23,441 nucleotides of DNA from a phage, in the sequence record PZ049722.1; one strand, written 5' to 3'. Positions 1,314-18,443 of this stretch are shown here, piece by piece. Position 1 is the first letter of the stretch, and each line of letters opens with the position of its first letter. The position numbers were made by a program, and so were the translations under genes. Under the pieces are notes generated by a model. The model saw only the letters and a program-made list of their open reading frames with translations, had not been told where the DNA came from and searched no databases.

Positions 1314-2388
1314 ATGGCCAGCGGCCGAAGAGCATTTCCTGATGAACAGCCAGCCGGGGGGGGCAACACTGCGCCCCAACCAACAAGGTGCTGGAAGCTT
1401 CGATGCGGCTGTGCGCTGTGTTTGAAGAGAGGCAAGACCCTGCGCCAGCAAATGCGGCCGGCCCTCGCAACCCGGAAAACAAATCAAACGAAAACCTGCA
1501 CACCACAAGGCCAACCCCGGCTCCACCGGAGGTGCTGCGACCAGACACCCAAAGCGGCGTTCAACCTCGACCGCGACCCCTTCGACGACCTCGAGTTCGG
1601 CCGGATGAGATGCGTCCCTGAGCTCGATATCCGGCTAACATCTCCGTGCCGAAACACACTACGCGCCACCACGGCTCTCCTGGCCGGCTGGTGGGCGAGT
1701 CCGGCGCCGGAGCTGCGCCGGCGCCAGCCCGGCCAGCTGCCGCCTTGCAACCAGCGGTGATCGTCATCGAACCCTACGTGCTGGGCATGGAGGACCAACT
1801 CCTATAGGGAAGGACACGGAAGGCCACCCGCACGGACAGTCCGCCCGCCGCTGCTGGAACCCTTGCGAAAAGCTGAAATCCAGCCCCCCGAAGCCCTGCT
1901 TCTGCAAAAGATGTACGCCATGCTCAAAGCGTCACGGCGCAGGCTTTCGCCACGTGCTGATCATCGAAGAGGTGCACTCCAGCCTGCCCATCCCCACGCT
2001 CACGCACCTCAAGCGCATGCGTGACCAGCTCGAACACCTGGCTTCGACAATGCTGTCCATGTCCTCATCGGCCAGCCCAGCTGCTGATCAAACGAGCCCG
2101 CAAGGCGACGTGCGTCGAGGTGGCCCAGCCCATCGAGATTGCGCAACTGCAGCCCATCCTCACGTCGGTGACCTGGACTGCGCACCTGGCATTTTCGTTG
2201 CAAGCACGCCGGCAAGCAGCTCCGAGCTGATCGATGCCAGCGGCGTGCAGGCCATCATCGAACGCCTGGGCAGCTCGGGTAAAGTACGTGCCAGCCAGCT
2301 CCACCCGCTGGCCATCGGCAACATGTTCAACGCCGCCTCAACCTCGCCGCCGAAATCGGCGAAAGCCGCATCACCGCTGATGTTGTGA
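1314..2388 (+). pseudogene. Decayed copy of the MuB-like ATPase gene, frameshifted
   Basis: ORF 1314..1760 has AFNLDRDPFDDL and ORF 1954..2388 has LIIEE.HS.LPIPTL.HLKRMRDQLEH and LIDASGVQAIIERLGSSGK, matching the 390-aa protein at 8300..9472 with indels. Confidence 0.65.
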
Positions 2389-2402
2389 AGGGGGTGTGAG
2401 CC

Positions 2403-2828
2403 ATGGCCATCACCATCGAACAAATCATGGAGCAGGCTCAGGTGTACGCCTCGGCCTGGAGCCTGGTCGGCGGGCCGTTCGACCAGGGCAACCTGCTGCA
2501 GCAGGCCGAGCTGGAGAAGCGGTGCTGCTGGAGATGGTCACTGCCTTCGAGGACGAACCCATGCCGCAGGGGCCCAGGAAGCGCAGCTCGACCTGGCTAA
2601 GCCGCTGATCGAGTGGCACCAGCACCGCATTGGCAACCTCAGCAAGTTGCAGCAGGCGGTAGAGGGCACTGAGATCCGCCTCGGCGAGGCTGATGCCGAT
2701 CCCATCGTCCTGCAGGCGCGATGCTAAAAGGCTGGCGCTTCGCCTTGGCGATTGCCGAGCAGCAGTTCGAGAAGTTCCCGCTGTCCATCGAGCGCAAAGC
2801 TCCCACCAGCGACGAGGAGGATGACCAT
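2403..2828 (+). pseudogene. Frameshifted copy of the 141-aa early gene found intact at 7871..8296
   Basis: ORF 2403..2600 shares the first 39 residues (MAITIEQIMEQAQVYASAWSLVGGPFDQGNLLQQAELEK) with the 141-aa protein and then leaves frame; 1-bp deletions seen relative to the right arm. Confidence 0.6.
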
Positions 2829-3176
2829 GCGCGCTCCCAACGTCATCCCGCTCAGCGCCAGATCGCCGCTGAGATCTCCATCCAACACGCGCTGCCCATG
2901 TGCACCGTGCTGACCCCTGAACTGGCCGACAAGCTCCGCGCCCTCAACGACATGACCCGCCGCCTGCGCGCGGCGGGCGTGCGTATCGAGGCCGCATCCC
3001 CGCTCGACGGCAAGATCTTCATCAACGCCGAAGACTCCGACCAGCTCGCCGCATCGTTCCGCAGTGAGTGGCGCGGCGTGAGTTGGAGCACCAAAGGCGT
3101 CCACACCATCAACAGCGTCCGCCTCGGCGGCTGCCAAGTCTGCTGGCTTACGCCAGTGAAGGAGCAGGAGTCATGA
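2826..3176 (+). pseudogene. Frameshifted copy of the 118-aa early gene found intact at 7518..7874
   Basis: ORF 2721..3176 carries the C-terminal 100 residues of the 118-aa protein fused to the upstream frame; about two 1-bp deletions near 2815-2860. Confidence 0.6.
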
Positions 3177-3355
3177 GCCTCGAAGCACGCCTGCGCGAAG
3201 CGCTGGAGCTGCTCAAACGCAGCGCCGGCTACGCCTCGGCCTATCCGACCATCGGTGGCCACAAGCTCAACGACGAGATCTGCCGCTTCCGCGAGGCGGT
3301 ACAGGCCGAACTCGAAACCAACGCCCAACAAGCCGAGGAAGAAACCCATGGCTGA
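3173..3355 (+). CDS. Small hypothetical early protein (60 aa), duplicate of 7339..7521
   Basis: Internal ATG with GGAG-type RBS; identical to right-arm copy. Confidence 0.5.
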   Translation: MSLEARLREALELLKRSAGYASAYPTIGGHKLNDEICRFREAVQAELETNAQQAEEETHG

Positions 3356-3968
3356 GCAAATCGCAATCCCCGAAGGCTTCGTCAAGAATGCTGCCGGCCA
3401 TCTGGTGCCGGAACACCAGGTGCGCGAGCACGACAAGCTGCGCGACAGCGTCGCCCGCGAGCTGGCCAACCAGGCCGTGGCCATCAGCGAGGCGCTGGGC
3501 GCGTTCAAGGCTAAGGCCCTGGGCGATATCGCCGACCTGATCGCCATCTCGGCCGAGAAGTACCAGGTCAAGCTCGGCGGCAAGAAGGGCAACGTCTCGA
3601 TCGTCACCTACGACGGCCGCTACAAGATCGAGCGCGCCATGGCCGAGCGCATCACCTTCACCGAGGAGATCCTCGCGGCCAAGGAGCTGATCGACCAGTG
3701 CATCCGCAAATGGAGCGAAGGCGCCGACCAGCACCTGCGCATCCTGGTCGACCGCGCGTTCCGCGCCAACCGCCAGGGCCAGATCAAGACCGGCGACGTG
3801 CTCAGCCTGCTGCGCGTCGAGATCGAAGACCCCGACTGGCAGCGCGCGATGGAGGCCCTGAAGGACTCCATCCAGGTCAACGGCACCGCCGTATACATCC
3901 GCGTCTACCAGCGCGTCGGCAACACCGACCGTTACGAGCCCATCAGCCTCGACATTGCGAAGGTGTGA
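3348..3968 (+). CDS. Conserved phage early protein (206 aa, possibly DUF3164-like), duplicate of 6726..7346
   Basis: Identical protein on both arms; start MAEQIAIPEGF after RBS. Confidence 0.55.
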   Translation: MAEQIAIPEGFVKNAAGHLVPEHQVREHDKLRDSVARELANQAVAISEALGAFKAKALGDIADLIAISAEKYQVKLGGKKGNVSIVTYDGRYKIERAMAERITFTEEILAAKELIDQCIRKWSEGADQHLRILVDRAFRANRQGQIKTGDVLSLLRVEIEDPDWQRAMEALKDSIQVNGTAVYIRVYQRVGNTDRYEPISLDIAKV

Positions 3969-3970
3969 CC

Positions 3971-4678
3971 ATGGACCAGGATCGCATTCTCGAAAAGATC
4001 AAGAAGTGCATGGAGATGGCCAAGGGCAAGGGCTCGAATCCGAACGAGGCCGAAATCGCCCTGCGCCAGGCGCATAAGCTGATGGAGGCCTACAACCTGG
4101 AGATGGGCGACGTCCTGGCCAGCATGGCCGGTGAGGTCACCATCGAAGCCGGCTCGGATGGTACCCCACCCACCTGGCGTATCCGCCTGGCTCAGGTGTG
4201 CGCCCATGCGTTTGGCACGCGCATGATCATCACGCAGAAGCTCACGGACCACTTCGACGTTGTAGGCGCCTTCATCTTTGTGGGCTGCGCAGCGGCACCA
4301 GAGCTGAGCGGATACGCCTACCAAGTGCTGGAGCGGCAGCTGCAGAAGGCTCGACGTGAGTTCCTGCAGTCACCGAAGAACAAGCGCTGCAAGCGCTCAA
4401 CCAAGGTCGCGCGCGGCGATCACTTCGCTAACGGCTGGATTGATGCCGTGTACCTCAAGGTCGACCAGTTCGCTGGCGTTGACGACAACATCGCCGAAGC
4501 GATCGAAGCCTACATGGCGAAGCACCACGCCGACCTGGGCAAGCACGAAATGAAGCGCCGCAAGCTCAAAGCCCGCGATGAAGGTGCCGCCGAGGCCGGT
4601 TACCAGGCTGGCAAGAGCGCCCAACTGCACCACGGACTTGGCCACAAGCCCGTCGCCCGACTGACTCAGGGGGTGTGA
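3971..4678 (+). CDS. DUF2786-like phage protein (235 aa), duplicate of 6016..6723
   Basis: N-terminus MDQDRILEKIKKCMEMAKGKGSNPNEAEIALRQAHKLMEAYNLE resembles the DUF2786 signature; identical on both arms. Confidence 0.55.
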   Translation: MDQDRILEKIKKCMEMAKGKGSNPNEAEIALRQAHKLMEAYNLEMGDVLASMAGEVTIEAGSDGTPPTWRIRLAQVCAHAFGTRMIITQKLTDHFDVVGAFIFVGCAAAPELSGYAYQVLERQLQKARREFLQSPKNKRCKRSTKVARGDHFANGWIDAVYLKVDQFAGVDDNIAEAIEAYMAKHHADLGKHEMKRRKLKARDEGAAEAGYQAGKSAQLHHGLGHKPVARLTQGV

Positions 4679-4679
4679 G

Positions 4680-4904
4680 ATGCAAACCCTTGAATGCACC
4701 GTGAAGTACTACATGGGTGCCTACCAGACCAACACCGTGCGCAGCCAGCGCGCCAGCTGCAGCCACTCCGAGGACGAGGCCGTGCGCCACCTGGGCGTAA
4801 AGCTGTTCGGCGAGCAGCTCCACCACGTCGAGCGCATCGATCTCAAACCCAGCGATCAGCCGGGCATGAGCCGCTGGCTGATCGTTGGTCGGGAGGTGCA
4901 GTGA
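4680..4904 (+). CDS. Small hypothetical protein (74 aa), duplicate of 5790..6014
   Basis: Identical ORF on both arms; starts 2 nt after upstream stop. Confidence 0.45.
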   Translation: MQTLECTVKYYMGAYQTNTVRSQRASCSHSEDEAVRHLGVKLFGEQLHHVERIDLKPSDQPGMSRWLIVGREVQ

Positions 4905-5327
4905 TGGGCCATCCAATTTTCCAAGACGCCCCCTCAAGGGACATGACCAAGGCTCAGGAGCGCCAGGCCGAGCTAGATGCGCAGGTCGAAGCCTTCCTGG
5001 CCAAGGGCGGGGAGATCAAGGCCTTCGACAACTTCCGCCGTCCTGATCCAGAGTGGGCCCTGGCGCTCGAAGTCGATCAACCCCGAGCAGCAGAAGCCAG
5101 CTCAGGCTGCGCCCATCAAGGCGAAACCGGCCAAGCCCGCCGCTCCTGTGAAGGCAAAGCCGGTACCGGAGGTGCCAGCCGAACCGGTGGCGGTGGCTAC
5201 CATCGACCTCAGCGCTGAGCTGCGCGCCTTGCGCAAGCAGACTGCAGCCATCAACCGCCCGGCCTGGCGCGAGTTGAGGTCTTTCGAGGACTCGACGCCA
5301 GCAACGCGGCGCAGCAGCGCGCGATAG
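4904..5327 (+). pseudogene. Frameshifted copy of the 130-aa K/P/A-repeat protein encoded intact at 5395..5790
   Basis: Identical for 47 residues after MGHPIF, then leaves frame near 5041-5050 where the two arms differ by an indel; the proper frame continues in ORF 4977..5327. Confidence 0.6.
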
Positions 5328-5398
5328 CTGTCGTCATCCATGCCCAGTTGGCCCTTGGCGATGTGGATCTTGCTGAGTACGCCTTTCGAGATACTCAT
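5261..5398 (-). pseudogene. GemA-like (Mu gp16, DUF1018-like) gene, 5' fragment of about 46 codons cut by the inversion junction
   Basis: N-terminus MSISKGVLSKIHIAKGQLGMDDDSYRALLRRVAGVESSKDL fits the GemA family start; beyond codon 46 ORF 5102..5398 reads antisense to duplicated sequence. Confidence 0.6.
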
Positions 5399-5790
5399 GC
5401 GCGACCACCCATAGAGCAGCTCAGGCGATTAAGGCGGCGGTTGATGGCTGCAGTCTGCTTGCGCAAGGCGCGCAGCTCAGCACTGAGGTCGATGGTAGCC
5501 ACCACCACCGGTTCGGCTGGCACCTCCGGTACCGGCTTTGCCTTCACAGGAGCGGCGGGCTTGGCCGGTTTCGCCTTGATGGGCGCAGCCTGAGCTGGCT
5601 TCTGCTGCTCGGGGTTGATCGACTTCGAGCGCCAGGGCCCACTCTCGATAGGACGGCGGAAGTTGTCGAAGGCCTTGATCTCCCCGCCCTTGGCCAGGAA
5701 GGCTTCGACCTGCGCATCTAGCTCGGCCTGGCGCTCCTGAGCCTTGGTCATGTCCCTTGAGGGGGCGTCTTGGAAAATTGGATGGCCCAT
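5395..5790 (-). CDS. Hypothetical early protein (131 aa) with K/P/A-rich repeat tail
   Basis: Start MGHPIF overlaps upstream stop; contains PAQAAPIKAKPAKPAAPVKAKPVPEVPAEP. Confidence 0.5.
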   Translation of the reverse strand: MGHPIFQDAPSRDMTKAQERQAELDAQVEAFLAKGGEIKAFDNFRRPIESGPWRSKSINPEQQKPAQAAPIKAKPAKPAAPVKAKPVPEVPAEPVVVATIDLSAELRALRKQTAAINRRLNRLSCSMGGRA

Positions 5791-6014
5791 CACTGCACCT
5801 CCCGACCAACGATCAGCCAGCGGCTCATGCCCGGCTGATCGCTGGGTTTGAGATCGATGCGCTCGACGTGGTGGAGCTGCTCGCCGAACAGCTTTACGCC
5901 CAGGTGGCGCACGGCCTCGTCCTCGGAGTGGCTGCAGCTGGCGCGCTGGCTGCGCACGGTGTTGGTCTGGTAGGCACCCATGTAGTACTTCACGGTGCAT
6001 TCAAGGGTTTGCAT
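5790..6014 (-). CDS. Small hypothetical protein (74 aa)
   Basis: ORF in operon context, tight spacing to neighbours. Confidence 0.45.
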   Translation of the reverse strand: MQTLECTVKYYMGAYQTNTVRSQRASCSHSEDEAVRHLGVKLFGEQLHHVERIDLKPSDQPGMSRWLIVGREVQ

Positions 6015-6015
6015 C

Positions 6016-6723
6016 TCACACCCCCTGAGTCAGTCGGGCGACGGGCTTGTGGCCAAGTCCGTGGTGCAGTTGGGCGCTCTTGCCAGCCTGGTAACCGGCC
6101 TCGGCGGCACCTTCATCGCGGGCTTTGAGCTTGCGGCGCTTCATTTCGTGCTTGCCCAGGTCGGCGTGGTGCTTCGCCATGTAGGCTTCGATCGCTTCGG
6201 CGATGTTGTCGTCAACGCCAGCGAACTGGTCGACCTTGAGGTACACGGCATCAATCCAGCCGTTAGCGAAGTGATCGCCGCGCGCGACCTTGGTTGAGCG
6301 CTTGCAGCGCTTGTTCTTCGGTGACTGCAGGAACTCACGTCGAGCCTTCTGCAGCTGCCGCTCCAGCACTTGGTAGGCGTATCCGCTCAGCTCTGGTGCC
6401 GCTGCGCAGCCCACAAAGATGAAGGCGCCTACAACGTCGAAGTGGTCCGTGAGCTTCTGCGTGATGATCATGCGCGTGCCAAACGCATGGGCGCACACCT
6501 GAGCCAGGCGGATACGCCAGGTGGGTGGGGTACCATCCGAGCCGGCTTCGATGGTGACCTCACCGGCCATGCTGGCCAGGACGTCGCCCATCTCCAGGTT
6601 GTAGGCCTCCATCAGCTTATGCGCCTGGCGCAGGGCGATTTCGGCCTCGTTCGGATTCGAGCCCTTGCCCTTGGCCATCTCCATGCACTTCTTGATCTTT
6701 TCGAGAATGCGATCCTGGTCCAT
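6016..6723 (-). CDS. DUF2786-like phage protein (235 aa)
   Basis: Same protein as 3971..4678; internal start MDQDRILEK. Confidence 0.55.
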   Translation of the reverse strand: MDQDRILEKIKKCMEMAKGKGSNPNEAEIALRQAHKLMEAYNLEMGDVLASMAGEVTIEAGSDGTPPTWRIRLAQVCAHAFGTRMIITQKLTDHFDVVGAFIFVGCAAAPELSGYAYQVLERQLQKARREFLQSPKNKRCKRSTKVARGDHFANGWIDAVYLKVDQFAGVDDNIAEAIEAYMAKHHADLGKHEMKRRKLKARDEGAAEAGYQAGKSAQLHHGLGHKPVARLTQGV

Positions 6724-6725
6724 GG

Positions 6726-7346
6726 TCACACCTTCGCAATGTCGAGGCTGATGGGCTCGTAACGGTCGGTGTTGCCGACGCGCTGGTAGACGCGGATGTA
6801 TACGGCGGTGCCGTTGACCTGGATGGAGTCCTTCAGGGCCTCCATCGCGCGCTGCCAGTCGGGGTCTTCGATCTCGACGCGCAGCAGGCTGAGCACGTCG
6901 CCGGTCTTGATCTGGCCCTGGCGGTTGGCGCGGAACGCGCGGTCGACCAGGATGCGCAGGTGCTGGTCGGCGCCTTCGCTCCATTTGCGGATGCACTGGT
7001 CGATCAGCTCCTTGGCCGCGAGGATCTCCTCGGTGAAGGTGATGCGCTCGGCCATGGCGCGCTCGATCTTGTAGCGGCCGTCGTAGGTGACGATCGAGAC
7101 GTTGCCCTTCTTGCCGCCGAGCTTGACCTGGTACTTCTCGGCCGAGATGGCGATCAGGTCGGCGATATCGCCCAGGGCCTTAGCCTTGAACGCGCCCAGC
7201 GCCTCGCTGATGGCCACGGCCTGGTTGGCCAGCTCGCGGGCGACGCTGTCGCGCAGCTTGTCGTGCTCGCGCACCTGGTGTTCCGGCACCAGATGGCCGG
7301 CAGCATTCTTGACGAAGCCTTCGGGGATTGCGATTTGCTCAGCCAT
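6726..7346 (-). CDS. Conserved phage early protein (206 aa, possibly DUF3164-like)
   Basis: Same protein as 3348..3968. Confidence 0.55.
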   Translation of the reverse strand: MAEQIAIPEGFVKNAAGHLVPEHQVREHDKLRDSVARELANQAVAISEALGAFKAKALGDIADLIAISAEKYQVKLGGKKGNVSIVTYDGRYKIERAMAERITFTEEILAAKELIDQCIRKWSEGADQHLRILVDRAFRANRQGQIKTGDVLSLLRVEIEDPDWQRAMEALKDSIQVNGTAVYIRVYQRVGNTDRYEPISLDIAKV

Positions 7347-7521
7347 GGGTTTCTTCCTCGGCTTGTTGGGCGTTGGTTTCGAGTTCGGCCTGTACCGCCT
7401 CGCGGAAGCGGCAGATCTCGTCGTTGAGCTTGTGGCCACCGATGGTCGGATAGGCCGAGGCGTAGCCGGCGCTGCGTTTGAGCAGCTCCAGCGCTTCGCG
7501 CAGGCGTGCTTCGAGGCTCAT
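7339..7521 (-). CDS. Small hypothetical early protein (60 aa)
   Basis: Same protein as 3173..3355. Confidence 0.5.
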   Translation of the reverse strand: MSLEARLREALELLKRSAGYASAYPTIGGHKLNDEICRFREAVQAELETNAQQAEEETHG

Positions 7522-7874
7522 GACTCCTGCTCCTTCACTGGCGTAAGCCAGCAGACTTGGCAGCCGCCGAGGCGGACGCTGTTGATGGTGTGGACGCCTT
7601 TGGTGCTCCAACTCACGCCGCGCCACTCACTGCGGAACGATGCGGCGAGCTGGTCGGAGTCTTCGGCGTTGATGAAGATCTTGCCGTCGAGCGGGGATGC
7701 GGCCTCGATACGCACGCCCGCCGCGCGCAGGCGGCGGGTCATGTCGTTGAGGGCGCGGAGCTTGTCGGCCAGTTCAGGGGTCAGCACGGTGCACATGGGC
7801 AGCGCGTGTTGGATGGAGATCTCAGCGGCGATCTTGGCGCTGAGCGGGATGACGTTGGGAGCGCGCATGGTCAT
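7518..7874 (-). CDS. Hypothetical early protein (118 aa)
   Basis: Intact ORF in early operon; the left-arm copy is frameshifted. Confidence 0.5.
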   Translation of the reverse strand: MTMRAPNVIPLSAKIAAEISIQHALPMCTVLTPELADKLRALNDMTRRLRAAGVRIEAASPLDGKIFINAEDSDQLAASFRSEWRGVSWSTKGVHTINSVRLGGCQVCWLTPVKEQES

Positions 7875-8296
7875 TCCTCCTCGTCGCTGGTGGGAGCTTT
7901 GCGCTCGATGGACAGCGGGAACTTCTCGAACTGCTGCTCGGCAATCGCCAAGGCGAAGCGCCAGCCTTTTAGCATCGCGCCCTGCAGGACGATGGGATTG
8001 GCATCAGCCTCGCCGAGGCGGATCTCAGTGCCCTCTACCGCCTGCTGCAACTTGCTGAGGTTGCCAATGCGGTGCTGGTGCCACTCGATCAGCGGCTTAG
8101 CCAGGTCGAGCTGCGCTTCCTGGGCCCCTGCGGTATGGGCTTCGTCCTCGAAGGCAGTGACCATCTCCAGCAGCACCAGCTTCTCCAGCTCGGCCTGCTG
8201 CAGCAGGTTGCCCTGGTCGAACGGCCCGCCGACCAGGCTCCAGGCCGAGGCGTACACCTGAGCCTGCTCCATGATTTGTTCGATGGTGATGGCCAT
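7871..8296 (-). CDS. Hypothetical early protein (141 aa)
   Basis: Intact ORF directly downstream of the B gene; the left-arm copy is frameshifted. Confidence 0.5.
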   Translation of the reverse strand: MAITIEQIMEQAQVYASAWSLVGGPFDQGNLLQQAELEKLVLLEMVTAFEDEAHTAGAQEAQLDLAKPLIEWHQHRIGNLSKLQQAVEGTEIRLGEADANPIVLQGAMLKGWRFALAIAEQQFEKFPLSIERKAPTSDEEE

Positions 8297-8299
8297 GGC

Positions 8300-9472
8300 T
8301 CACACCCCCTTCACAACATCAGCGGTGATGCGGCTTTCGCCGATTTCGGCGGCGAGGTTGAGGGCGGCGTTGAACAGGTTGCCGATGGCCAGCGGGTAGA
8401 GCTGGCTGGCACCGTCCTTACCCGAGCTGCCCAGGCGTTCGATGATGGCCTGCACGCCGCTGGCATCGATCAGCTCGTCGAGCTGCTTGCCGGCGTGCTT
8501 GCAACGAAATGCCAGGTGCGCGTCCAGGTCACCGACGGTGATGGGCTGCAGTTGCGCAATCTCGATGCGCTGGGCCACCTCGCGCACGTCGCCGTTGCGC
8601 GGGCTGAGTTTGATCAGCAGCTCGGGCTGGCCGATGAGGATGATGGACAGCAGTTTGTCGAAGCCGTGTTCGAGCTGGTCACGCATGCGCTTGAGGTGCT
8701 TGAGCGTGGGGATGGGCAGCGAGTGCGCCTCTTCGATGATCAGCACATGGCGGAAGCCTGCGCCGTGGCTGGCTTTGAGCGTGGCGTGCATCTGCGCGAA
8801 GCGGGCTTCGGGGCTGGATTTGGCTTTCTCCAGCGGCGCCACAGCGGCCATCACAGACTCGGCAATGTGGGTGGCCTTCAGGGATTTGCCCTTGGTGTCG
8901 TTGTCCTCCATGCCCAGCACGTAGGGTTCGATGACGATCACCGGCTCATTGCGCAGGCGGTGCGCCAGGTCGCGGCGCAGCGTGCTTTTGCCGGCGCCGG
9001 ACTCGCCCACCACGGCCAGGAAGCCATCATGGCGCGCGGTCTGGTACATGCTCTCGCGGATGTAGCGGATATCGGGGCTCAGGTACATCTCATCGGCCGA
9101 CTTGAGGTCGTCGAAGGGGTCGCGGTGCAGGTTGAACGCCCGCTTGGTGTCTGGTCGCAGCACTTGTTTAGCCATTAGCATGTCGGGGCACTCCTGGGTT
9201 TCGTGATTGTTTTCCGGGGTTGCAGGGGCCTGCGCGTTGGCGCGCGCAGGCTCCATCTCTTCAAACGCGGCGCGCACAGCGTCGAACTCCGCGCCTTGTT
9301 GCATCAGGTACTCAGTGATGCCCCAGGCCAGCTGGTTCATCGGGATGCTCTTGGGCCACTGGCCGTGGTTGATCAGTTGGGCGATGGCTGCCGGGCTGAG
9401 CTTCACCGCCCTGGCCAGGTCGGCCTGGCCCTTGCCCACGCTGGCCAGCACTTGCTTGAGACGTTTCATCAC
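8300..9472 (-). CDS. Mu B-like transposition ATPase / target DNA activator (390 aa)
   Basis: Walker A GESGAGKST, N-terminal HTH-like region, sits directly downstream of and overlapping the transposase gene. Confidence 0.8.
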   Translation of the reverse strand: MMKRLKQVLASVGKGQADLARAVKLSPAAIAQLINHGQWPKSIPMNQLAWGITEYLMQQGAEFDAVRAAFEEMEPARANAQAPATPENNHETQECPDMLMAKQVLRPDTKRAFNLHRDPFDDLKSADEMYLSPDIRYIRESMYQTARHDGFLAVVGESGAGKSTLRRDLAHRLRNEPVIVIEPYVLGMEDNDTKGKSLKATHIAESVMAAVAPLEKAKSSPEARFAQMHATLKASHGAGFRHVLIIEEAHSLPIPTLKHLKRMRDQLEHGFDKLLSIILIGQPELLIKLSPRNGDVREVAQRIEIAQLQPITVGDLDAHLAFRCKHAGKQLDELIDASGVQAIIERLGSSGKDGASQLYPLAIGNLFNAALNLAAEIGESRITADVVKGV

Positions 9473-11241
9473 TCACCCCCAACCAGGCGCAGGCCTGGGC
9501 GTGCGGGCGCTTGCAGCTGGGCGACGATGGCGTCGAGCTGCTCCTCCATGGCGCCATCGGGGTAGTTGGCCTTGAGCCATTCCATCGACTCGGGCGTCCA
9601 GCCGCTGCCCAGGCGCGCGCGCAGCGCCTTGGCCAGCTCGATGCGGTTGAGCGGCTTCAGCTCCACCGAGGCCAGGCCGGAGCGGCTTTCCAGCTCTATA
9701 CCGCGCTTGGGCAGGTAGGCCGGCAGCATGGTATTGGCCTGTTCCTTGAACGGGTCGATCTCGCCGCCGAATGGCGTGGCGCGCGCCTTCTTGGCCTTCT
9801 CGGCAGCCTCGATACTGTCGGTGCCAGTGGCGAGCTGGTCCAACGTCTTCTTGGTCTGCTCGGCCTGGCTCTCCGGCAGCGAGCGGATGCCCTCGCCGAT
9901 CACTCGGCGGGTAGCACCGTTGGCGGCGAAGCCGTTGTCATCCTTGTCGACGCGCTCGACCACGTGGTAATGCTCGCGACCGTCTTCGCCGACCAGCACG
10001 AGCTGGGCGCTCTCCTGGTCGCGCCATGGGTTGCGGGTGATCAGCACACTGTCGCCGACCATCAGGCCCGGCACGTCGGCGATGCAGTACTCGGCGCCGC
10101 GGAACGGCACGCGCAGCTTGGCGGTGACCTTGCGCTTCTCCGGCTGGGCGATCGCCAGCTCGCGGCAGATCTCGGCGGCCGGCGCGATGCGCAGCTGCTC
10201 AGGGCGGATCAGCATCCAGGCGCCGTAGCGGGTGCGCTGGTGGCGGGTGTGGATGGCGGTGGCGTTGTAGTGCCGCATCCAGCGCCCGGCCAGGGCGTTG
10301 ATCTGCTCCAGGGTGCTGGGCTTGTCCATCAGGCGCAAGCCGCTCTCGAACTCACGCTCGACGATGTTGTGCGCCTGCTCGACCTGGCCCTTGGCGCGGG
10401 CGTTGCCGACCTTGTTGATGATCAGCTCGATGGACAGCGCATGGCACAGGTTGCGGAACATCGCAGAGGTCATGGCCGCACCGGGGTCGGTCATGATCAT
10501 GAAGGGCGCACCGTGGAATGGATCGTGCTCGCCACGTTTCTGCATCGCGCTGATCAGCACCTCGCAGAGGTTCTTCGCACTCTCGGCGCCCAGCACGTAC
10601 TGCACATAAATAGTGCCGCTGGTGTGGTCGGTGATCACGTAGCGCCACAGGCGCTGCTTCTCGATGCGCTTGAGATTCTCGGGCTTGCCGTCGTAGAACT
10701 CGGCCTTGTTCATGGCGCGGGCGCCGTCGTCGGCCAAGTAGAATTGGGTCGAGATCGAGGCGTCGATCTGCCAGACGTGGTTCGGGTGCAGGCTGACCAG
10801 CTCCACGGCCGGCGCCGGGCGCAGCACCTGATCCGGGTGCAGGCCGTAGGCGCGCAGGGCACGGGCGATGGCATCGAGCGACAGCGGGCGGATCTCGCCG
10901 GTGGCGCCGTCGATGATCTCGGCGCGGATCTGCCCATTGCTGCGCAGGCGCTCCACGGCGCGCTCCAGGGTGCTGAGTTGTTTATCGTTGTCGCGGATGG
11001 ACTGAATCAGCACGGCGCTGATCAGCTCCGCCTCATGCCGCTCCAGAGCCGAGGTGCCGGCATCGCTGCGACGTTTACGGGGAGTGGTCACGGTGACCTC
11101 CTTGAGCTTGCGGTAAACGGTTGCGAGGGTGATGCCCATGTCCGTTGCTGCCGCCCTGCACAGGGCGGTTTTGCTGCCGCGCGGCGCCTGCTCGATGTCT
11201 CGAGCCAGGGCTACCAGGCGTTGGGTCATCACTGCACTCAT
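9469..11241 (-). CDS. Mu A-like DDE transposase (590 aa)
   Basis: Size, N-terminal DNA-binding region, core motifs HVWQIDAS and MIMTDPGAAMTS typical of Mu/B3/D3112 transposases, followed by a B-like ATPase. Confidence 0.85.
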   Translation of the reverse strand: MSAVMTQRLVALARDIEQAPRGSKTALCRAAATDMGITLATVYRKLKEVTVTTPRKRRSDAGTSALERHEAELISAVLIQSIRDNDKQLSTLERAVERLRSNGQIRAEIIDGATGEIRPLSLDAIARALRAYGLHPDQVLRPAPAVELVSLHPNHVWQIDASISTQFYLADDGARAMNKAEFYDGKPENLKRIEKQRLWRYVITDHTSGTIYVQYVLGAESAKNLCEVLISAMQKRGEHDPFHGAPFMIMTDPGAAMTSAMFRNLCHALSIELIINKVGNARAKGQVEQAHNIVEREFESGLRLMDKPSTLEQINALAGRWMRHYNATAIHTRHQRTRYGAWMLIRPEQLRIAPAAEICRELAIAQPEKRKVTAKLRVPFRGAEYCIADVPGLMVGDSVLITRNPWRDQESAQLVLVGEDGREHYHVVERVDKDDNGFAANGATRRVIGEGIRSLPESQAEQTKKTLDQLATGTDSIEAAEKAKKARATPFGGEIDPFKEQANTMLPAYLPKRGIELESRSGLASVELKPLNRIELAKALRARLGSGWTPESMEWLKANYPDGAMEEQLDAIVAQLQAPARPGLRLVGGE

Positions 11242-14325: not shown

Positions 14326-14535
14326 TTAGGCGGCGACGGGTTCGCCGGTTTTGATGCCTAGGGCCACGGCGATTTCGTGGGCCTGGCCGTAGTTGGCTTT
14401 GTCGAAGCCGTTGAGCACGCGGTACACCGCGTTGCGCTTGTAGCCGTGCTCTTCGGCCCACTGGGTGATGGTGATGCCGCGCTGGCGGAATCGCTGTTTG
14501 ACCTGTTCAGGGGTCAGTGCCTTCTGGGTAGCCAT
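14326..14535 (-). CDS. Ner-like DNA-binding protein (69 aa)
   Basis: MATQKALTPEQVKQRFRQRGITITQWAEEHGYKRNAVYRVLNG...AHEIAVALGI fits the Ner/Nlp pattern; AAGGAG RBS; divergent from the repressor gene. Confidence 0.7.
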   Translation of the reverse strand: MATQKALTPEQVKQRFRQRGITITQWAEEHGYKRNAVYRVLNGFDKANYGQAHEIAVALGIKTGEPVAA

Positions 14536-14589
14536 GGCGGTGGCTCCTTTTGGGTTGCTGAATGATGTTTGTGTTTTGTTGGGCTGATG

Positions 14590-14635
14590 ATGGTGCGGAT
14601 ATCCGCACCTGTCAAGGAAAAGTGCGGAAAACTGC
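14590..14635. promoter_or_regulatory. Immunity-region operator and early promoter: perfect 18-bp palindrome GGTGCGGATATCCGCACC plus a GTGCGGA half-site; minus-strand -35 TTGACA abuts the palindrome
   Basis: Palindrome at about 14592..14609; half-site repeat at about 14623..14629; reverse complement of tgtcaa at about 14611..14616 gives TTGACA with the palindrome as spacer. Confidence 0.5.
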
Positions 14636-15073
14636 ATGATTGGTGAGCGACTAAAAGAAGAGCGCAAGCGCTTAGGTCTTACCCAGCCCGGGTTGGCCGA
14701 GGTTGCTGGCGCGGCTAAGAGGACTGTCATTGACTGGGAGAAGGGCGTTTCGTCGCCTACAGCAGCCCAGTTAGAGGCACTTTCCAGGGTTGGAGTGGAT
14801 GTGCTTTTCGTCGTCACCGGTATTCGCGGTCAAACTGTGACCAATGAGTCAAATAGCGCGACGTCGCGCTATTTGACTGAAAACTCAAATCCGGTCACGC
14901 ATTCAGTGGAGGCTGAGCCGCTGGGTGAATACCGGCTAAACCGGCGCGAGAAGGCGCTACTGGAGAATTACCGAGGCTCGGACGAAGAAGGACGACGAGC
15001 CATGGAGAGCACCGCGAGTGCTCTGGCGCACAGGGACAGTGCGAAGAAGAAAGGACGCCAAGGCGGCGAATGA
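14636..15073 (+). CDS. XRE-family HTH transcriptional regulator, putative prophage repressor (145 aa)
   Basis: N-terminus ERLKEERKRLGLTQPGLAEVAGAAKRTVIDWEKG is a Cro/C1-type HTH; divergent from the ner-like gene across the operator. Confidence 0.7.
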   Translation: MIGERLKEERKRLGLTQPGLAEVAGAAKRTVIDWEKGVSSPTAAQLEALSRVGVDVLFVVTGIRGQTVTNESNSATSRYLTENSNPVTHSVEAEPLGEYRLNRREKALLENYRGSDEEGRRAMESTASALAHRDSAKKKGRQGGE

Positions 15074-15095: not shown

Positions 15096-15833
15096 ATGAG
15101 CAAGGCTCTGATTGTTCTAGGGGTGGTTTTATCTCTGACAGGATGTGCAACTGACTACAGCAAGAAAACCCCGGCTGAAGTGGCAAAGGAGGTGCGTGTT
15201 CTCGACAGTGAGTTCAATGCGCATCGCCTGCTGATGGCGCCAGTGGTGAAAGCGAGCCCCATGTTCGGCATGAACTATTCAGCTCGTTTGGTTAGATCCC
15301 AGGCAAAAGCTGATGGCAGCGTTACACACGTGTTGACCGTTGATTGGGACTACTCAAGTAGCCGATGGATGTTTTTCAGCTCCGCGACGTTGCCGGGCGC
15401 TAGGTCGCTGGTGGTGCGTGCCAACGACAGGCATGTGCGTAGCTGCGGTAGCTATGGCAGTTGCAGTTACACGGAAAGGGTCTCGGCGATCATTCCGCTG
15501 GATGTACTGATTGGGCTTGCTGCAAGTCGTAGCGACATGAACATCAGATTCGGTTCACAGCAGGGCTACGTGGATCTGGCTCTACCGGCAAACTACGTTC
15601 TCGGTTACCTGCAGGGCACCTCAACAATCGCTGAGGCGCAAGGAGGCTCTGCGGCTCCAGCTCCTGCCGCCTCTCGAATCCCGAAATGGGAGCCTGTCCC
15701 AACTCGCCCTGCGGGCCAGCCTGCTGAGGCGGTGGCCAAGAGCAAGGAACAGCAGCTCCAGGAGCTAAAGAACACGCCGGGGCTGAGTTACGAGGAATAT
15801 CAGCGGCGGTATCGGATGATCATGGGGCAGTGA
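15096..15833 (+). CDS. Lipoprotein (245 aa), candidate lysogenic-conversion or superinfection-exclusion factor
   Basis: Signal peptide with lipobox LSLTGC; ATG 23 nt after the repressor stop with GGGA RBS; codon usage appears AT-richer than the phage core. Confidence 0.65.
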   Translation: MSKALIVLGVVLSLTGCATDYSKKTPAEVAKEVRVLDSEFNAHRLLMAPVVKASPMFGMNYSARLVRSQAKADGSVTHVLTVDWDYSSSRWMFFSSATLPGARSLVVRANDRHVRSCGSYGSCSYTERVSAIIPLDVLIGLAASRSDMNIRFGSQQGYVDLALPANYVLGYLQGTSTIAEAQGGSAAPAPAASRIPKWEPVPTRPAGQPAEAVAKSKEQQLQELKNTPGLSYEEYQRRYRMIMGQ

Positions 15834-15931: not shown

Positions 15932-16270
15932 ATGATCACCATCAAATACACTCTGACCCAAGGCATGAGCGGCGCAGGTACTCACACTGAGCTGGAAGTG
16001 GCCACTGGCCCGCGTAATCTGATCAAGTTTGCTGAGGCATTCGATAGCGTGCGTGATCGCCTGAAGGCCGCCTACGGCAACGTTGGATGTGGTCGGGTCT
16101 GGGTAGAAATTGACGGTATTGAGGTTTCCGAGTCCGAGCTGAAAAAATTGACTCGCCAGGACTACGAAATTGACATGCGCGACTACAAGGACGGCATTCG
16201 TTCGAGCAAGCCGGATAGCCTGACCATTCGCGCCACTGATCTGCTTGCAGACCTGCGGGAGGCAGCATGA
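15932..16270 (+). CDS. Hypothetical protein (112 aa), first gene of the cargo operon
   Basis: ORF with AGGAG RBS; stop overlaps the next start (ATGA); no family recognised. Confidence 0.6.
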   Translation: MITIKYTLTQGMSGAGTHTELEVATGPRNLIKFAEAFDSVRDRLKAAYGNVGCGRVWVEIDGIEVSESELKKLTRQDYEIDMRDYKDGIRSSKPDSLTIRATDLLADLREAA

Positions 16271-16860
16271 GCGCTCGGAATAAATACGCAAATTGGGCGC
16301 TTGGCGTGCCGGCTGCGCGGCTTCGTCAGCGTAGCCGCATGAGCACCTATGACGAGGCCGCTACCAGCGGCCTCGCGTTCGAGCTGCAAGAGCTGACCGG
16401 GCTGCGTTTCGATGAGTCGGCCTGGCTGGCCGGCGTAACGTGCCATGTAGCGATTACGCATCCTGCACTGCTCAAGTGGGCCGGTGAGCCGCCAGATGCG
16501 CCGGGATTCATCTACACCTGGGCGACCTGTGCGCCGAATCTACGAGGCTCGCAGCGCGTCGACATCAACGAACGGCGCTTTGAGCGCTGGCTGAAATCCG
16601 CCACCGATGCTGATGCCCTGGCTGACTGGTACGGCTACACCCTGGAGGCGCTAAAAGTTGTGCGCGGGAAACACTTCGATATCCGCACGTTGTTCGATAT
16701 CGGCCGCTTGCGCGCCCTTCACTTCGCCGACGAGCTGCCGCAGGTCGGGCCGCGCGCGTTCTCAGGCTACTGCGCTCTTGAGTTCTACAATCACCAGCCG
16801 CAGGGGCTGGGCGGGGCAGTACCTCGGCAAATTCCGACCGAATTGTTGATTGGCTCATGA
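16267..16860 (+). CDS. Hypothetical protein (197 aa), second gene of the cargo operon
   Basis: Translationally coupled to both neighbours; no family recognised. Confidence 0.6.
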   Translation: MSARNKYANWALGVPAARLRQRSRMSTYDEAATSGLAFELQELTGLRFDESAWLAGVTCHVAITHPALLKWAGEPPDAPGFIYTWATCAPNLRGSQRVDINERRFERWLKSATDADALADWYGYTLEALKVVRGKHFDIRTLFDIGRLRALHFADELPQVGPRAFSGYCALEFYNHQPQGLGGAVPRQIPTELLIGS

Positions 16861-17060
16861 AACCAGACGCCTCCCTACACAACCCAGACCCGCGCTATAT
16901 CGCGGGTCTGGTCGAGCAGACCGGGCTGCTGAAGGGCGAGGTTGCTCGACTGCTGGGTATCACGCCAAAGGCCCTTCGCAACTACATGGACGAGAAATTG
17001 AAGCGCGAAATTCCCTACTCAACCCAGTTCGCCCTTGAGTGCCTGGCCGCTCAGGAATAA
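16857..17060 (+). CDS. Small HTH DNA-binding protein (67 aa), third gene of the cargo operon
   Basis: GEVARLLGITPKALRNYMDE is a classic helix-turn-helix; ATGA overlap with the upstream gene. Confidence 0.6.
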   Translation: MKPDASLHNPDPRYIAGLVEQTGLLKGEVARLLGITPKALRNYMDEKLKREIPYSTQFALECLAAQE

Positions 17061-17090
17061 CGCCAGGAATAATCCGCACACCGTTTTAGA

Positions 17091-17121
17091 GGGCGCCGCA
17101 ATGGCGCCCTTTCGATTTTTG
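17091..17121 (+). terminator. Rho-independent terminator: 7-bp GC stem GGGCGCC/GGCGCCC, 5-nt loop, then a T-rich tract
   Basis: gggcgccGCAATggcgccc followed by tttcgatttttg, 30 nt after the stop of 16857..17060. Confidence 0.7.
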
Positions 17122-17235
17122 CCCCGTCCAAATTACTCCGCGCGCGCGCGAGGCGAAGCTGTGATCTCTGCCGTTTAAGACCGGCACTTATTAGCACAGC
17201 AACGGCCAGGGATTGGCCAACCTCGGAGCGCAATC

Positions 17236-17535
17236 ATGTCTCAAGCCTGCAAGCCCAAGCGCCGCCTACTGCCGCGCATGACCGTTTTCGCTGTTATCTC
17301 CCTGATGCTGCTGACCGCCATCTGGTTCGTGCGGCCCGAGCAACTGCAAGTGGTGCTGTACAAGGCCAGCCTGGTGACGCTCGGCGCCGTGCTGGGTTAC
17401 TACATCGACCGTGCGGTGTTCCTGACCGAAGCCCGGCCGCATGAGTGCATTGGCGGCATCCACATCGTTGGCGCCTGGCTGCGGCGCGCCCTGATCGTGC
17501 TGGCCTGCATCCTCGGCCTGACGCTGGGGCTCTAG
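17236..17535 (+). CDS. Small membrane protein with about 3 TM segments, putative holin
   Basis: Hydrophobic segments VFAVISLMLLTAIWFV, ASLVTLGAVLGYYI and ALIVLACILGLTLGL; sits directly upstream of the endolysin. Confidence 0.5.
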   Translation: MSQACKPKRRLLPRMTVFAVISLMLLTAIWFVRPEQLQVVLYKASLVTLGAVLGYYIDRAVFLTEARPHECIGGIHIVGAWLRRALIVLACILGLTLGL

Positions 17536-17536
17536 T

Positions 17537-18443
17537 CGTGAACCGCCTCAAGCGTTGGCTGGCCGAGGCCGGCAATGACCTGGCGATCATCTGGATGGTC
17601 GAACCGCGCCTGTTCCTGTGGCCGCTTATCCTGCTGGTGTTCGCAGTCGGCTTCTTCATCGTGCCCAAGGCAGATGCTGCAAGCATCCCGACCGCTGCCG
17701 AGCAGCACCGCCGCACCCTGGTACGCGCTGCCCATGCTGAGTGGGGGCTTGGCGCGCCTGTGGCGACGTTCGCGGCGCAGGTGCATCAAGAGAGCGCCTG
17801 GCGGGTGAATGCCCGGTCGCCTGTGGGCGCCGAGGGCTTGGCGCAGTTCATGCCGGCTACGGCGGACTGGATGGCCGAGATCTACCCGCGCAGCCTGGGC
17901 CCGGCGCAGCCGTACAACCCAGGCTGGGCATTGCGGGCCATGGTCGCCTTCGACCGCTGGCTCTACGAACGAAACCAGGCCATCAGCGAGTGCGATCGCT
18001 GGGCGTTCGTGCTGTCCGGCTACAACGGCGGCAATGGCTGGGTGAATCGTGACCGCAGGCTGGCATCGGCTAAGGGTGCCGACCCGCTGGCCTGGTTCGA
18101 TTCCGTCGAGCGGCACAACGCTGGCCGCTCGGCCGCCAACTTCCGCGAGAACCGCCATTACCCGCGCGCCATCCTGCTGCGCTGGGAGCCCATGTATGCG
18201 GCTGCCGGCTGGGGCCCTGGCGTGTGCGCCGAGAGGTATAGCCGCCATGAAGATTCCGACGCTGTTTCTGCTCGTCACGTTGACCACCAGTTCGCCTGCC
18301 GCTTGCTCCCGGAACTGGCTGGCTGCCGCCGAGCTGTTCGCATCGCCACCGCCCCGCGTTCGTCCGGCCCAGCTCTGGCCGCCGGAACGCGCGGACAAAC
18401 GACCACCCCTGCCGCGTTGGTTGCGGCGCCGGCTAAAGCGTAG
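17537..18443 (+). CDS. Endolysin, lytic transglycosylase (SLT domain) with N-terminal membrane anchor (possible SAR type); true 3' end uncertain
   Basis: QVHQESAWRVNARSPVGAEGLAQFMPATADWMAEIY carries the SLT catalytic motif; GTG start 2 nt after the upstream stop; N-terminal hydrophobic stretch LFLWPLILLVFAVGFFIV. Confidence 0.7.

What the first reader, a model, noticed from the sequence alone, without database searches (positions are those of the whole stretch)
17126..17235. Intergenic region upstream of the lysis cassette with a (CG)6 tract and a 6-bp inverted repeat
Between the cargo terminator and the holin gene lies the alternating tract CGCGCGCGCGCG and the inverted repeat GCCGTT...AACGGC around a TTATTAG motif. 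This is where a late or lysis promoter dependent on a phage activator would be expected, yet no Mor-like gene was recognised in the window.
Basis: inference. Interest (0 to 1): 0.2.

Follow-up and report, generated by a model that had tools for sequence, protein, structure and literature searches.

The report
Mor-type late promoter before lysis genes

Summary
(CG)6 lies at 17139-17150, GCCGTT/AACGGC at 17170-75/17201-06 and TTATTAG at 17188-94, between a terminator (17088-17120) and the holin ATG (17236).

Only the CG tract matters. In 57 of 61 holin-anchored relatives the same module precedes the holin:
- an A/T-armed dyad (window 17116-17136)
- an invariant 18-nt gap that usually holds (CG)4-7
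- an xAxxxT hexamer (GAAGCT, 17155-60), kept in 41 of 41 unique modules
- a structured leader

In B3-like genomes the dyad precedes the holin, the head protease and the tape-measure gene. These match the three late transcript clusters seen by RNA-seq in phage Fc02.

The dyad comes in two classes that track two Mor (PF08765) classes, in 15 of 15 and 4 of 4 contigs plus B3 and PM105. They do not track repressor or Ner type.

The window has no Mor gene. Its early operon is cut inside GemA by a giant palindrome, and relatives carry Mor two genes beyond GemA (in B3, directly after it).

Best reading: a Mor-dependent late promoter with an unusual (CG)n spacer. No start site or binding was measured here.

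The parts
17088..17120 (+). Intrinsic terminator of the repressor/cargo operon. The stem is AGAGGGCGCC/GGCGCCCTTT. Its T-run runs into the left arm of the dyad.
   Evidence: Terminator scan, 11 pairs of which 7 are G-C. The hairpin GGGCGCCGCAATGGCGCCC recurs upstream of the module in many relatives with other cargo genes. In Mu, the Mor site of Pm likewise overlaps a terminator-like hairpin.
17116..17136 (+). Imperfect dyad TTTTTGCCCCGTCCAAATTAC ('class B'), the proposed binding site of a Mor-family activator. Its centre is at about 17124.5, roughly -42.5 from the inferred start site.
   Evidence: Present in 57 of 61 holin-anchored upstream regions. The same class is found at the holin, protease and tape-measure promoters of one genome. 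Class B goes with Mor class II in 15 of 15 contigs; class A goes with Mor class I in 4 of 4 contigs plus B3 and PM105. It does not track repressor or Ner type.
17132..17137 (+). Weak -35-like hexamer ATTACT (3 of 6 matches to TTGACA), 17 bp upstream of the -10-like hexamer and overlapped by the right arm of the dyad.
   Evidence: Read from the sequence and from the gapless alignment. The class A equivalent is AAGACC.
17139..17150 (+). (CG)6 tract that fills most of the promoter spacer (about -28 to -17).
   Evidence: 36 of 41 unique holin-upstream modules have (CG)4-7 here. The repeat number varies by substitution, while the 18-nt gap between AAAWKAC and the hexamer is invariant. The tract is also found before tape-measure genes. 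It is absent from 25 of 25 unique protease-upstream promoters.
17155..17160 (+). -10-like hexamer GAAGCT, with the A at position 2 and the T at position 6 conserved.
   Evidence: xAxxxT is kept at the same distance from the dyad in 41 of 41 unique holin modules. It is also kept at the tape-measure promoters (GAGGAT, GACCAT, GAGCAT, GAACAT, AACCAT, GACAAT, GATACT). At the protease promoters (CACTCT, CAATCT, CAGTCT) nearly every sequence has an ATG 6-7 nt after it.
17167..17167 (+). Inferred transcription start site (+/- 2 nt). Not measured.
   Evidence: Inference: 7 nt after the last base of the hexamer. Supported indirectly by the protease promoters, where the A of the start codon sits exactly at this distance.
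17161..17197 (+). Leader hairpin 1: inner stem TGCCG (17169-73) / CGGCA (17182-86), outer stem GUG (17161-63) / CAC (17195-97).
   Evidence: RNAfold. In the window it is weak (-8.2 kcal/mol, z=-0.92, 34 of 200 shuffles fold as well). Other lineages have a hairpin of different sequence at the same place, with z of about -1.8 to -5.4 in nine of the thirteen holin-leader types folded and not significant in the other four. This cassette has two alternative versions among close relatives.
17204..17218 (+). Leader hairpin 2 / palindrome GGCCA-GGGAT-TGGCC.
   Evidence: The only consensus helix RNAalifold finds in 16 diverse leaders. Its 4 pairs are kept unchanged in 15-16 of the 16 sequences and none covaries, so it says nothing for or against an RNA structure. 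The blastn match to phage B3 starts here (window 17204). It is absent from some lineages (L022-24, L030, L032, L036, L038).
17225..17238 (+). Shine-Dalgarno GGAG (17225-28) and the holin start codon ATG (17236-38).
   Evidence: Sequence; conserved in relatives.

Best explanation
The interval is the late promoter of the lysis/packaging operon (here called P1) of a B3-like (Beetrevirus-type) transposable prophage of Pseudomonas.

Proposed mechanism:
1. In the lysogen, the terminator at 17088-17120 stops transcripts of the repressor/cargo operon.
2. After induction, the early operon on the opposite strand makes a Mor-family activator. Its gene is the last of that operon and lies outside this window.
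3. Mor binds the imperfect dyad at 17116-17136, centred about 42 bp upstream of the start. The dyad overlaps a very weak -35.
4. Mor recruits sigma-70 RNA polymerase to the weak -10 GAAGCT (17155-60), as Mu Mor does at Pm.
5. Transcription starts near 17167 and gives a leader of about 70 nt with one or two hairpins, a GGAG ribosome site and the holin ATG.

The (CG)6 tract is the core of the 17-bp spacer. It is kept as alternating CG at the lysis and tail promoters but not at the head promoter. It most likely sets the basal tightness or the timing of firing, and not who binds.

Shown here: the conservation, the fixed geometry, the three copies per genome, and the co-variation of dyad class with Mor class.
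Inferred: the start site, Mor binding and the role of the CG tract.
For: (1) The window is a B3-like Mu-like prophage. The early operon with transposase A and B lies on the - strand. The HTH repressor, cargo genes, holin, SLT endolysin, Rz, gp27-like protein, terminase and portal lie on the + strand.

(2) Holin-anchored sampling, which is not selected on the motif: 57 of 61 upstream regions carry the module. Of 41 unique versions, 41 have xAxxxT at a fixed 18-nt gap from the dyad and 36 have (CG)>=4.

(3) The dyad occurs exactly three times in B3, at 11566, 19835 and 26818. These are the three large intergenic gaps of the late region, before the holin, the protease and the tape-measure gene. 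The nhmmer profile finds the holin and tape-measure copies in PM105, and reading the sequence shows the protease copy. In an IMG/VR pattern scan the module precedes holin (17 matches) or tape-measure (30 matches) homologues.

(4) Protease-anchored loci: 25 of 25 unique sequences have the dyad and the 18-nt gap, and 24 of 25 have an xAxxxT hexamer there. Nearly all have an ATG 6-7 nt after it. This fits a leaderless mRNA and fixes the -10/start geometry.

(5) RNA-seq of Beetrevirus Fc02 shows three late clusters on the forward strand. The first starts at holin-endolysin, and mor is the last gene of the early operon (PMC9936078).

(6) Specificity. There are two Mor classes, both PF08765 and 32% identical to each other. 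Class II goes with dyad TTTTTGCCnCGTCmAAATTAC in 15 of 15 contigs. Class I goes with TTTTCGG-N4-CCGAAAAG in 4 of 4 contigs plus B3 and PM105. L015 and L017 have the same promoter sequence from the CG tract to the holin ATG but differ in dyad and in Mor class. Repressor and Ner types do not track the dyad class.

(7) The architecture matches Mu Pm: a dyad of two 5-bp A/T arms around a G/C-rich centre, centred at -43.5, no usable -35, overlapping a terminator-like hairpin (PMC4390567, PMC4287176).
Against: - No transcription start site, footprint or Mor dependence has been measured for this phage or, to my knowledge, for any B3-like phage. The start site is inferred.
- The window has no Mor gene, so in this particular copy the promoter may be orphaned unless Mor is supplied from elsewhere.
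- The -10 (GAAGCT) is poor by sigma-70 standards. The promoter scan found nothing here.
- The Mor-dyad correlation comes from related, non-independent genomes.
- I could not read the Fc02 sequence, so the link between its three clusters and the three dyads rests on B3 and PM105.
- At tape-measure promoters the inferred start would fall inside the downstream hairpin. Either the start or the RNA-hairpin reading is off there.
- The nhmmer profile used was built from part of the same set.
Confidence: 0.75

Rival explanations
1. RNA-level element. The conserved part acts after transcription. The two leader hairpins (17161-17197 and 17204-17218) would stabilise the 5' end of the late mRNA, bind a regulator of holin translation, or act like a put-type antiterminator. 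In the strong form there is no promoter here and the holin is reached by read-through.
For: All 32 unique leaders fold into a hairpin of lineage-specific sequence followed in most by GGCCA-N4-5-TGGCC. Hairpin 1 has z of about -1.8 to -5.4 in nine of thirteen holin-leader types. GGCC/GGCC is nearly invariant in the 16 sequences aligned.
Against: - In the window itself hairpin 1 is not better than shuffles (z=-0.92).
- Hairpin 2 shows no covariation, and several lineages lack it.
- Rfam has no match.
- A strong terminator lies directly upstream, so read-through is unlikely.
- The strong form does not explain the dyad-Mor co-variation or the fixed dyad-hexamer spacing.
- A leader function can coexist with the promoter.
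Confidence: 0.1
2. The (CG)n spacer is a structural switch. Alternating CG, prone to Z-DNA and sensitive to twist, makes the lysis and tail promoters depend on supercoiling or on a higher Mor level. They therefore fire later than the head promoter, which has the same dyad but an ordinary spacer.
For: - (CG)>=4 is present in 36 of 41 holin promoters and at the tape-measure promoters of B3 and PM105, but in 0 of 25 protease promoters.
- One lineage has (CG)2(TG)4, which still alternates pyrimidine and purine (L021).
- In Fc02 the second (structural) cluster starts earlier, and clusters 1 and 3 rise in step (PMC9936078).
- From my own recollection of the Mu literature (the papers were not read here): at Mu Pm and Pmom the spacer (T-tracts) matters for activation.
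Against: - The timing link is a correlation drawn from one paper's text and from other phages' sequences.
- The tape-measure set was selected by a pattern that contains (CG)5.
- From general knowledge: tracts of 8-14 bp are short for a B-Z transition in vivo.
- Five holin promoters work, presumably, without the tract.
- The tract may only keep the spacer free of accidental promoter elements.
Confidence: 0.15
3. The dyad is the operator of another regulator (the c repressor, Ner, or the 67-aa HTH protein encoded just upstream at 16857-17060), not of Mor.
For: The 67-aa protein has an HTH with a weak MerR-type match (E=2.6e-5, below the Pfam cut-off) and ends 56 nt before the dyad. MerR-type regulators act through promoter spacers (my own knowledge).
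Against: A homologue of the 67-aa gene is found in only 1 of the related holin loci searched, and B3, JBD67 and PM105 lack it there. Repressor and Ner types vary freely within one dyad class and are shared between classes. Mor class tracks the dyad class without exception.
Confidence: 0.04
4. Nothing functional: (CG)6 and the inverted repeat are chance features of G+C-rich intergenic DNA. Alternatively, the CG tract is a slippage-prone repeat that switches the promoter on and off by changing spacer length.
For: With one mismatch allowed, CG12-like strings are as frequent as expected. The 6-bp inverted repeat is at chance level. The repeat number differs among relatives, from 4 to 7.
Against: The tract is kept at the same place in lineages whose holins are only 58-75% identical and whose dyads and leaders differ. 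The total spacing is invariant, because repeats are gained or lost by substitution and not by insertion or deletion. That is the opposite of a length switch.
Confidence: 0.03

Closest known systems
Phage Mu middle promoter Pm with its activator Mor (and the related C-dependent late promoters Plys, PI, PP, Pmom)
   Same: - An imperfect dyad with A/T arms and a G/C-rich centre, centred about 42-43 bp upstream of the start and taking the place of a -35.
- A recognisable but weak -10.
- The activator is a PF08765 protein encoded by the last gene of the early operon, after gemA.
- The site overlaps a terminator of the preceding operon.
- Several copies per genome stand in front of lysis, head and tail operons.
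(PMC4390567, PMC4287176.)
   Different: - One Mor-family gene is annotated in B3, PM105 and BcepMu, and it appears to serve all three late promoters. Mu uses a Mor-to-C cascade.
- The dyad sequence differs: TTTTCGG-N4-CCGAAAA or TTTTTGCCnCGTCCAAATT, against Mu AGTAAAGCCGGTTAAT.
- The spacer is alternating (CG)4-7, where Mu has a T-run.
- The -10 is GAnGmT.
- Two interchangeable specificity classes exist.
- Nothing here has been tested biochemically.
Beetrevirus (B3, PM105, JBD67, Fc02) late transcription units
   Same: Same gene order and the same module upstream of the holin. The module is 92-100% identical among 27 P. aeruginosa phage records. It has the same architecture in the window, where DNA similarity to B3 starts only at 17204. 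Fc02 shows three late clusters by RNA-seq.
   Different: The window's phage comes from another Pseudomonas lineage: holin 63-73% identical to P. aeruginosa phages, closest to prophages of Pseudomonas sp. P818, Ectopseudomonas toyotomiensis and P. chaetocerotis. It has the class B dyad that goes with class II Mor. The Fc02 paper names no late promoters. I could not read the B3 genome paper.
HK022 put / other processive-antitermination leader RNAs
   Same: Two adjacent stem-loops directly downstream of a phage promoter.
   Different: There is no sequence or Rfam match and no covariation for hairpin 2. Hairpin 1 is weak in the window. No downstream terminators were identified that it would need to overcome. 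This is a recalled resemblance only.

Membership tests
Mor/C-dependent promoter of Mu-like phages | A dyad-symmetry element with A/T-rich arms and a G/C-rich centre, positioned about -43.5 and replacing the -35 hexamer | tested here: met
   Dyad at 17116-17136. There are 18 nt from its right arm to the hexamer in 41 of 41 modules. The centre is at about -42.5 if the start is 17167; the start itself is inferred. The -35-like ATTACT matches 3 of 6.
Mor/C-dependent promoter of Mu-like phages | A recognisable -10 hexamer used by host sigma-70 polymerase | tested here: inconclusive
   GAAGCT keeps the A at position 2 and the T at position 6, which are invariant across holin, tape-measure and protease promoters. 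It fails the consensus promoter scan. Sigma-70 use was not tested.
Mor/C-dependent promoter of Mu-like phages | A cognate PF08765 activator encoded by the same phage | tested here: not met
   Not met in the window: no Mor by Pfam or tblastn, because GemA is cut at the palindrome centre. Met in relatives: Mor follows GemA, directly or after one more gene, in B3, PM105, BcepMu and IMG/VR contigs.
Mor/C-dependent promoter of Mu-like phages | Site specificity matched to the activator | tested here: met
   Dyad class B goes with Mor class II in 15 of 15 contigs. Dyad class A goes with Mor class I in 4 of 4 contigs plus B3 and PM105. Repressor and Ner do not correlate. This is comparative evidence only.
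Mor/C-dependent promoter of Mu-like phages | Transcription starts here, late, and only with the activator | not testable with these tools
   Indirect only: Fc02 RNA-seq shows late cluster 1 beginning at holin-endolysin (PMC9936078).
Intrinsic (rho-independent) terminator | A G+C-rich hairpin followed by a T-run at the end of an operon | tested here: met
   17088-17112 stem with 11 pairs, then TTTCGATTTTT. It applies to the flank, not to the reported interval.
Z-DNA-forming alternating purine-pyrimidine tract | Uninterrupted (CG)n | tested here: met
   (CG)6 at 17139-17150; 4-7 repeats in relatives.
Z-DNA-forming alternating purine-pyrimidine tract | Left-handed transition under physiological supercoiling, with an effect on transcription | not testable with these tools
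   No data.
Phase-variable simple-sequence repeat in a promoter spacer | Changes in repeat number change the spacer length | tested here: not met
   The repeat number varies from 4 to 7, but the 18-nt gap is constant in 41 of 41 modules.
Known structured RNA families (Rfam 15) | A covariance-model match | tested here: not met
   No hit in 17126-17235 even at E<=10.

The most novel reading that the evidence does not exclude
B3-like phages time their three late operons with one Mor protein and one dyad, by varying only the spacer. An ordinary spacer with a leaderless start gives the earlier head operon. An alternating-(CG)n spacer, sensitive to twist or supercoiling and perhaps capable of a B-Z transition, holds back the lysis/packaging and tail operons until Mor or template topology passes a threshold. 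In parallel, two Mor classes with two matching dyad classes form a natural, swappable pair of orthogonal activator-promoter systems.
Probability: 0.15. Interest if true: 0.6.

Novelty: new variant of a known kind. Interest (0 to 1): 0.4.

Why it matters
It gives a concrete, testable map of late gene control for a widespread group of Pseudomonas transposable prophages. That group includes the P. aeruginosa phages used in anti-CRISPR and lysogeny work.

- There are three promoters per genome, with one predicted operator in two specificity classes.
- The predicted -10 and start positions include a probable leaderless head-protease mRNA.
- The (CG)n spacer is an unusual and strongly conserved promoter feature. 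It is cheap to test and could explain the order of late transcription seen by RNA-seq.
- The class A and class B Mor/dyad pairs would also be useful as orthogonal inducible promoters in Pseudomonas.

For this window specifically, the lysis promoter is intact but its activator gene is not present in the window.

Tried and rejected
- Rfam scan of 16800-17600 at E<=10: nothing in the interval.
- Consensus sigma-70 scan: no hit in the interval.
- RNAalifold on a MAFFT alignment of 16 leaders: it only recovers the invariant GGCC/GGCC helix. Hairpin 1 cannot be aligned by sequence, so no formal covariation count was possible. I used per-lineage z-scores instead.
- Sigma-54 reading of GGCAC-N5-AGCA around TTATTAG: the GG-to-GC spacing is one base short of the consensus (my own knowledge) and varies among relatives (8 or 11 nt). 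Rejected.
- The 67-aa HTH protein as regulator: rejected, because it is rare in relatives.
- Repressor or Ner as the dyad binder: rejected.
- Slippage or phase variation: rejected, because the spacing is constant.
- BcepMu: no match to the module profile. The module is specific to the B3-like group, not to all phages with a BcepMu-like layout.
- The B3 genome paper (PMC516594) is not held. Fc02 is not listed among the records matched in the phage collection, so its own promoters could not be read.
- Exact look-up of the ORF that spans the palindrome junction: not on record.

Full report
**What is in the window**

The window is a Mu-like transposable prophage with the B3 (Beetrevirus) layout. 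An early operon runs leftwards on the - strand. It holds a Ner-like gene (14326-14817), a CII-like gene, an IclR-type HTH gene, transposase A (9469-11241) and B (8300-9472), DUF3164, DUF2786/DUF7168, a protein with a SutA RNAP-binding domain, and GemA.

A repressor gene (14636-15073, HTH_3) and four cargo genes run rightwards and end at a terminator (17088-17120). After them come the holin (17236-17535, PF13272), an SLT endolysin, Rz, DUF2730, a gp27-like protein, the large terminase and the portal. blastn finds B3 and about 50 P. aeruginosa Beetreviruses, with similarity starting at window 17204.

The closest relatives by holin are prophages of Pseudomonas sp. P818, Ectopseudomonas toyotomiensis, P. 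chaetocerotis and others.

**Checking the observation**

All motifs are at the stated places. Statistically, an exact (CG)6 is expected about 0.1 times per window. The 6-bp inverted repeat is ordinary: 2 such repeats observed against 1.28 expected, P=0.35.

**Comparative anatomy**

I collected upstream regions anchored on the holin protein, so they were not selected on any DNA motif. There are 46 usable IMG/VR loci, 13 species genomes, B3 and JBD67, with holin identity from 54 to 100%.

57 of the 61 regions share one module, and there are 41 unique versions. From 5' to 3' it consists of:
- Often the same terminator hairpin, GGGCGCCGCAATGGCGCCC.
- An A/T-armed dyad of about 18-21 bp.
- An invariant gap of 18 nt.
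- A hexamer with A at position 2 and T at position 6, in 41 of 41 (GAAGCT, GATGAT and others).
- A leader with a hairpin of lineage-specific sequence.
- In most, GGCCA-N4-5-TGGCC, then GGAG and the ATG.

The 18-nt gap holds (CG)4-7 in 36 of 41 versions. The repeat number changes by substitution, with the total length kept (ACTC+(CG)6, ACTCCC+(CG)5, ACCCCC+(CG)4). One lineage has (CG)2(TG)4.

**Three copies per genome**

In the complete B3 genome the dyad TTTTCGG-N4-CCGAAAA occurs exactly three times. The sites are 11566 (before the holin), 19835 (before the head protease/scaffold gene) and 26818 (before the tape-measure gene). These are the three large gaps of the late region. PM105 has the same three.

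A pattern scan of IMG/VR for dyad plus (CG)5 returned 17 matches before holin homologues and 30 before tape-measure homologues, among the first 80 loci. The dyad class was the same at both promoters of one contig.

Protease-anchored loci give 25 unique sequences. All have the dyad and an 18-nt gap without a CG tract. 24 of 25 have an xAxxxT hexamer there (CACTCT, CAATCT, CAGTCT), and nearly all have an ATG 6-7 nt after it. A start codon held exactly where a transcript would begin argues that the hexamer is the -10 and that the head mRNA is leaderless. This supports the same geometry at the holin promoter: start near 17167, dyad centre near -42.5, CG tract at -28 to -17.

**Experimental anchor**

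[quoted passage not shown] The early operon ends with gemA and mor. Three late clusters lie on the other strand, the first starting at holin-endolysin. The second (structural) cluster comes up earlier, and the first and third rise in step (PMC9936078). That paper names no late promoters. The three dyads explain the three clusters. The CG spacer is present at promoters 1 and 3 and absent at 2, in parallel with the reported timing. This last point is a correlation only.

**Who binds the dyad**

B3 ORF1, PM105 gp01 and BcepMu gp01 are Mor homologues at the end of the early operon, directly after GemA. In relatives of the window the order is SutA-like, GemA, a 183-aa protein, then Mor.

There are two Mor classes, both PF08765 and only 32% identical to each other. 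Matching contig names gives:
- Class II Mor with dyad TTTTTGCCnCGTCmAAATTAC in 15 of 15 contigs.
- Class I Mor with TTTTCGG-N4-CCGAAAAG (or a close variant) in 4 of 4 contigs, plus B3 and PM105 (against 16, 18).

L015 and L017 are identical from the CG tract to the holin ATG, yet they differ in both dyad and Mor class. Repressor and Ner types vary freely within a dyad class and are shared between classes. The 67-aa HTH cargo gene next to the promoter is found in only one related locus. Mor is therefore the best candidate for the dyad binder.

The architecture copies Mu Pm: 5-bp A/T arms around a G/C-rich centre, centred at -43.5, no -35, overlapping a terminator-like hairpin (PMC4390567, PMC4287176).

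**Why the window has no Mor**

The window contains a giant inverted repeat centred at about 5347. It is 100% identical from about 2223 to 8477 and falls to 81-98% further out, to 209 and 10440. GemA (start at 5398, - strand) is cut after 46 codons by the junction, so the genes beyond it, including Mor, are not in the window.

The surviving GemA N-terminus matches the class II Mor lineage in 44 of 46 residues. That fits the class B dyad at 17116-17136.

**Leader**

RNAfold places a hairpin right after the inferred start in every lineage. It is significant in nine of the thirteen holin-leader types folded (z about -1.8 to -5.4). It is not significant in the window (z=-0.92) or in two of the six tape-measure leaders folded. 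GGCC/GGCC is nearly invariant, so it is uninformative for covariation. I treat a 5'-hairpin role in mRNA stability as plausible but unproven.

**Verdict**

This is a real, conserved regulatory element. It is a new variant of the Mor/C-dependent promoter kind, marked by an alternating-CG spacer and two activator/operator specificity classes. Interest is moderate.

Noticed in passing
window 209-10440 (centre about 5347; arms 2860-5044/5650-7834 and 5046-5259/5436-5649; unique core 5260-5435): A giant inverted repeat: two partial copies of the prophage early region lie head to head. They are 100% identical in the inner ~3 kb of each arm and 81-98% identical further out. The junction cuts GemA after 46 codons and removes the rest of the early operon, including Mor. 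It could be a real rearrangement or an assembly chimera of two related prophages. The ORF spanning the junction is not on record elsewhere.
   Followed up: partly
window 5395-6000 (-) and its inverted copy 4694-5218 (+): An early-operon protein with a SutA RNA-polymerase-binding domain (PF20661, E=1e-8). It is conserved just upstream of GemA in relatives (L196-L206). A phage-encoded SutA-like factor could modify host polymerase.
   Followed up: partly
L052 19835-19889; L054 21066-21119; L251-L283 (position about 290-403): The head-protease promoter has the same dyad and an ordinary G+C-rich 18-nt gap. Its hexamer is CACTCT, CAATCT or CAGTCT. In nearly all sequences the ATG lies 6-7 nt after the hexamer, which suggests a conserved leaderless mRNA. 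B3 ORF36 is annotated as starting 30 nt upstream, inside the promoter.
   Followed up: partly
window 16857-17060 (+): A 67-aa HTH protein (phrog_3865; MerR-type HTH match below the Pfam cut-off) is the last cargo gene before the terminator. It is rare: one homologue among the related holin loci searched. Its stop region carries a direct duplication, CAGGAATAA x2 (17052-17072).
   Followed up: partly
window 17169-17194 against L232/L233 (same holin): The inner part of leader hairpin 1 exists as two alternative cassettes...TGCCGTTTAAGACCGGCACTTATT... and ...CCCCCGGTCGGACTGCCGGTATG.... The flanks are identical. Both can form a small stem.
   Followed up: no
L230 447-1109 (-), GCA_043356455.1: In a prophage with an identical holin, the first gene next to the repressor encodes a 220-aa protein with a Mor domain (PF08765, E=6e-12). 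This is an unusual place for a Mor-family protein. The window has a Ner-like gene at that position instead.
   Followed up: partly
L021 (IMGVR_UViG_3300049569_000143), spacer of the holin promoter: The CG tract is replaced by CGCG+TGTGTGTG. The spacer still alternates pyrimidine and purine. This hints that alternation, and not CG as such, is what is kept.
   Followed up: no
window 15096-15833, 15932-16270, 16267-16860 (+): The cargo genes between the repressor and the terminator are a 245-aa lipoprotein (C-terminus like phrog_10370) and two ORFs with no family match. G+C is lower here (55-58%) than in the rest of the prophage.
   Followed up: no
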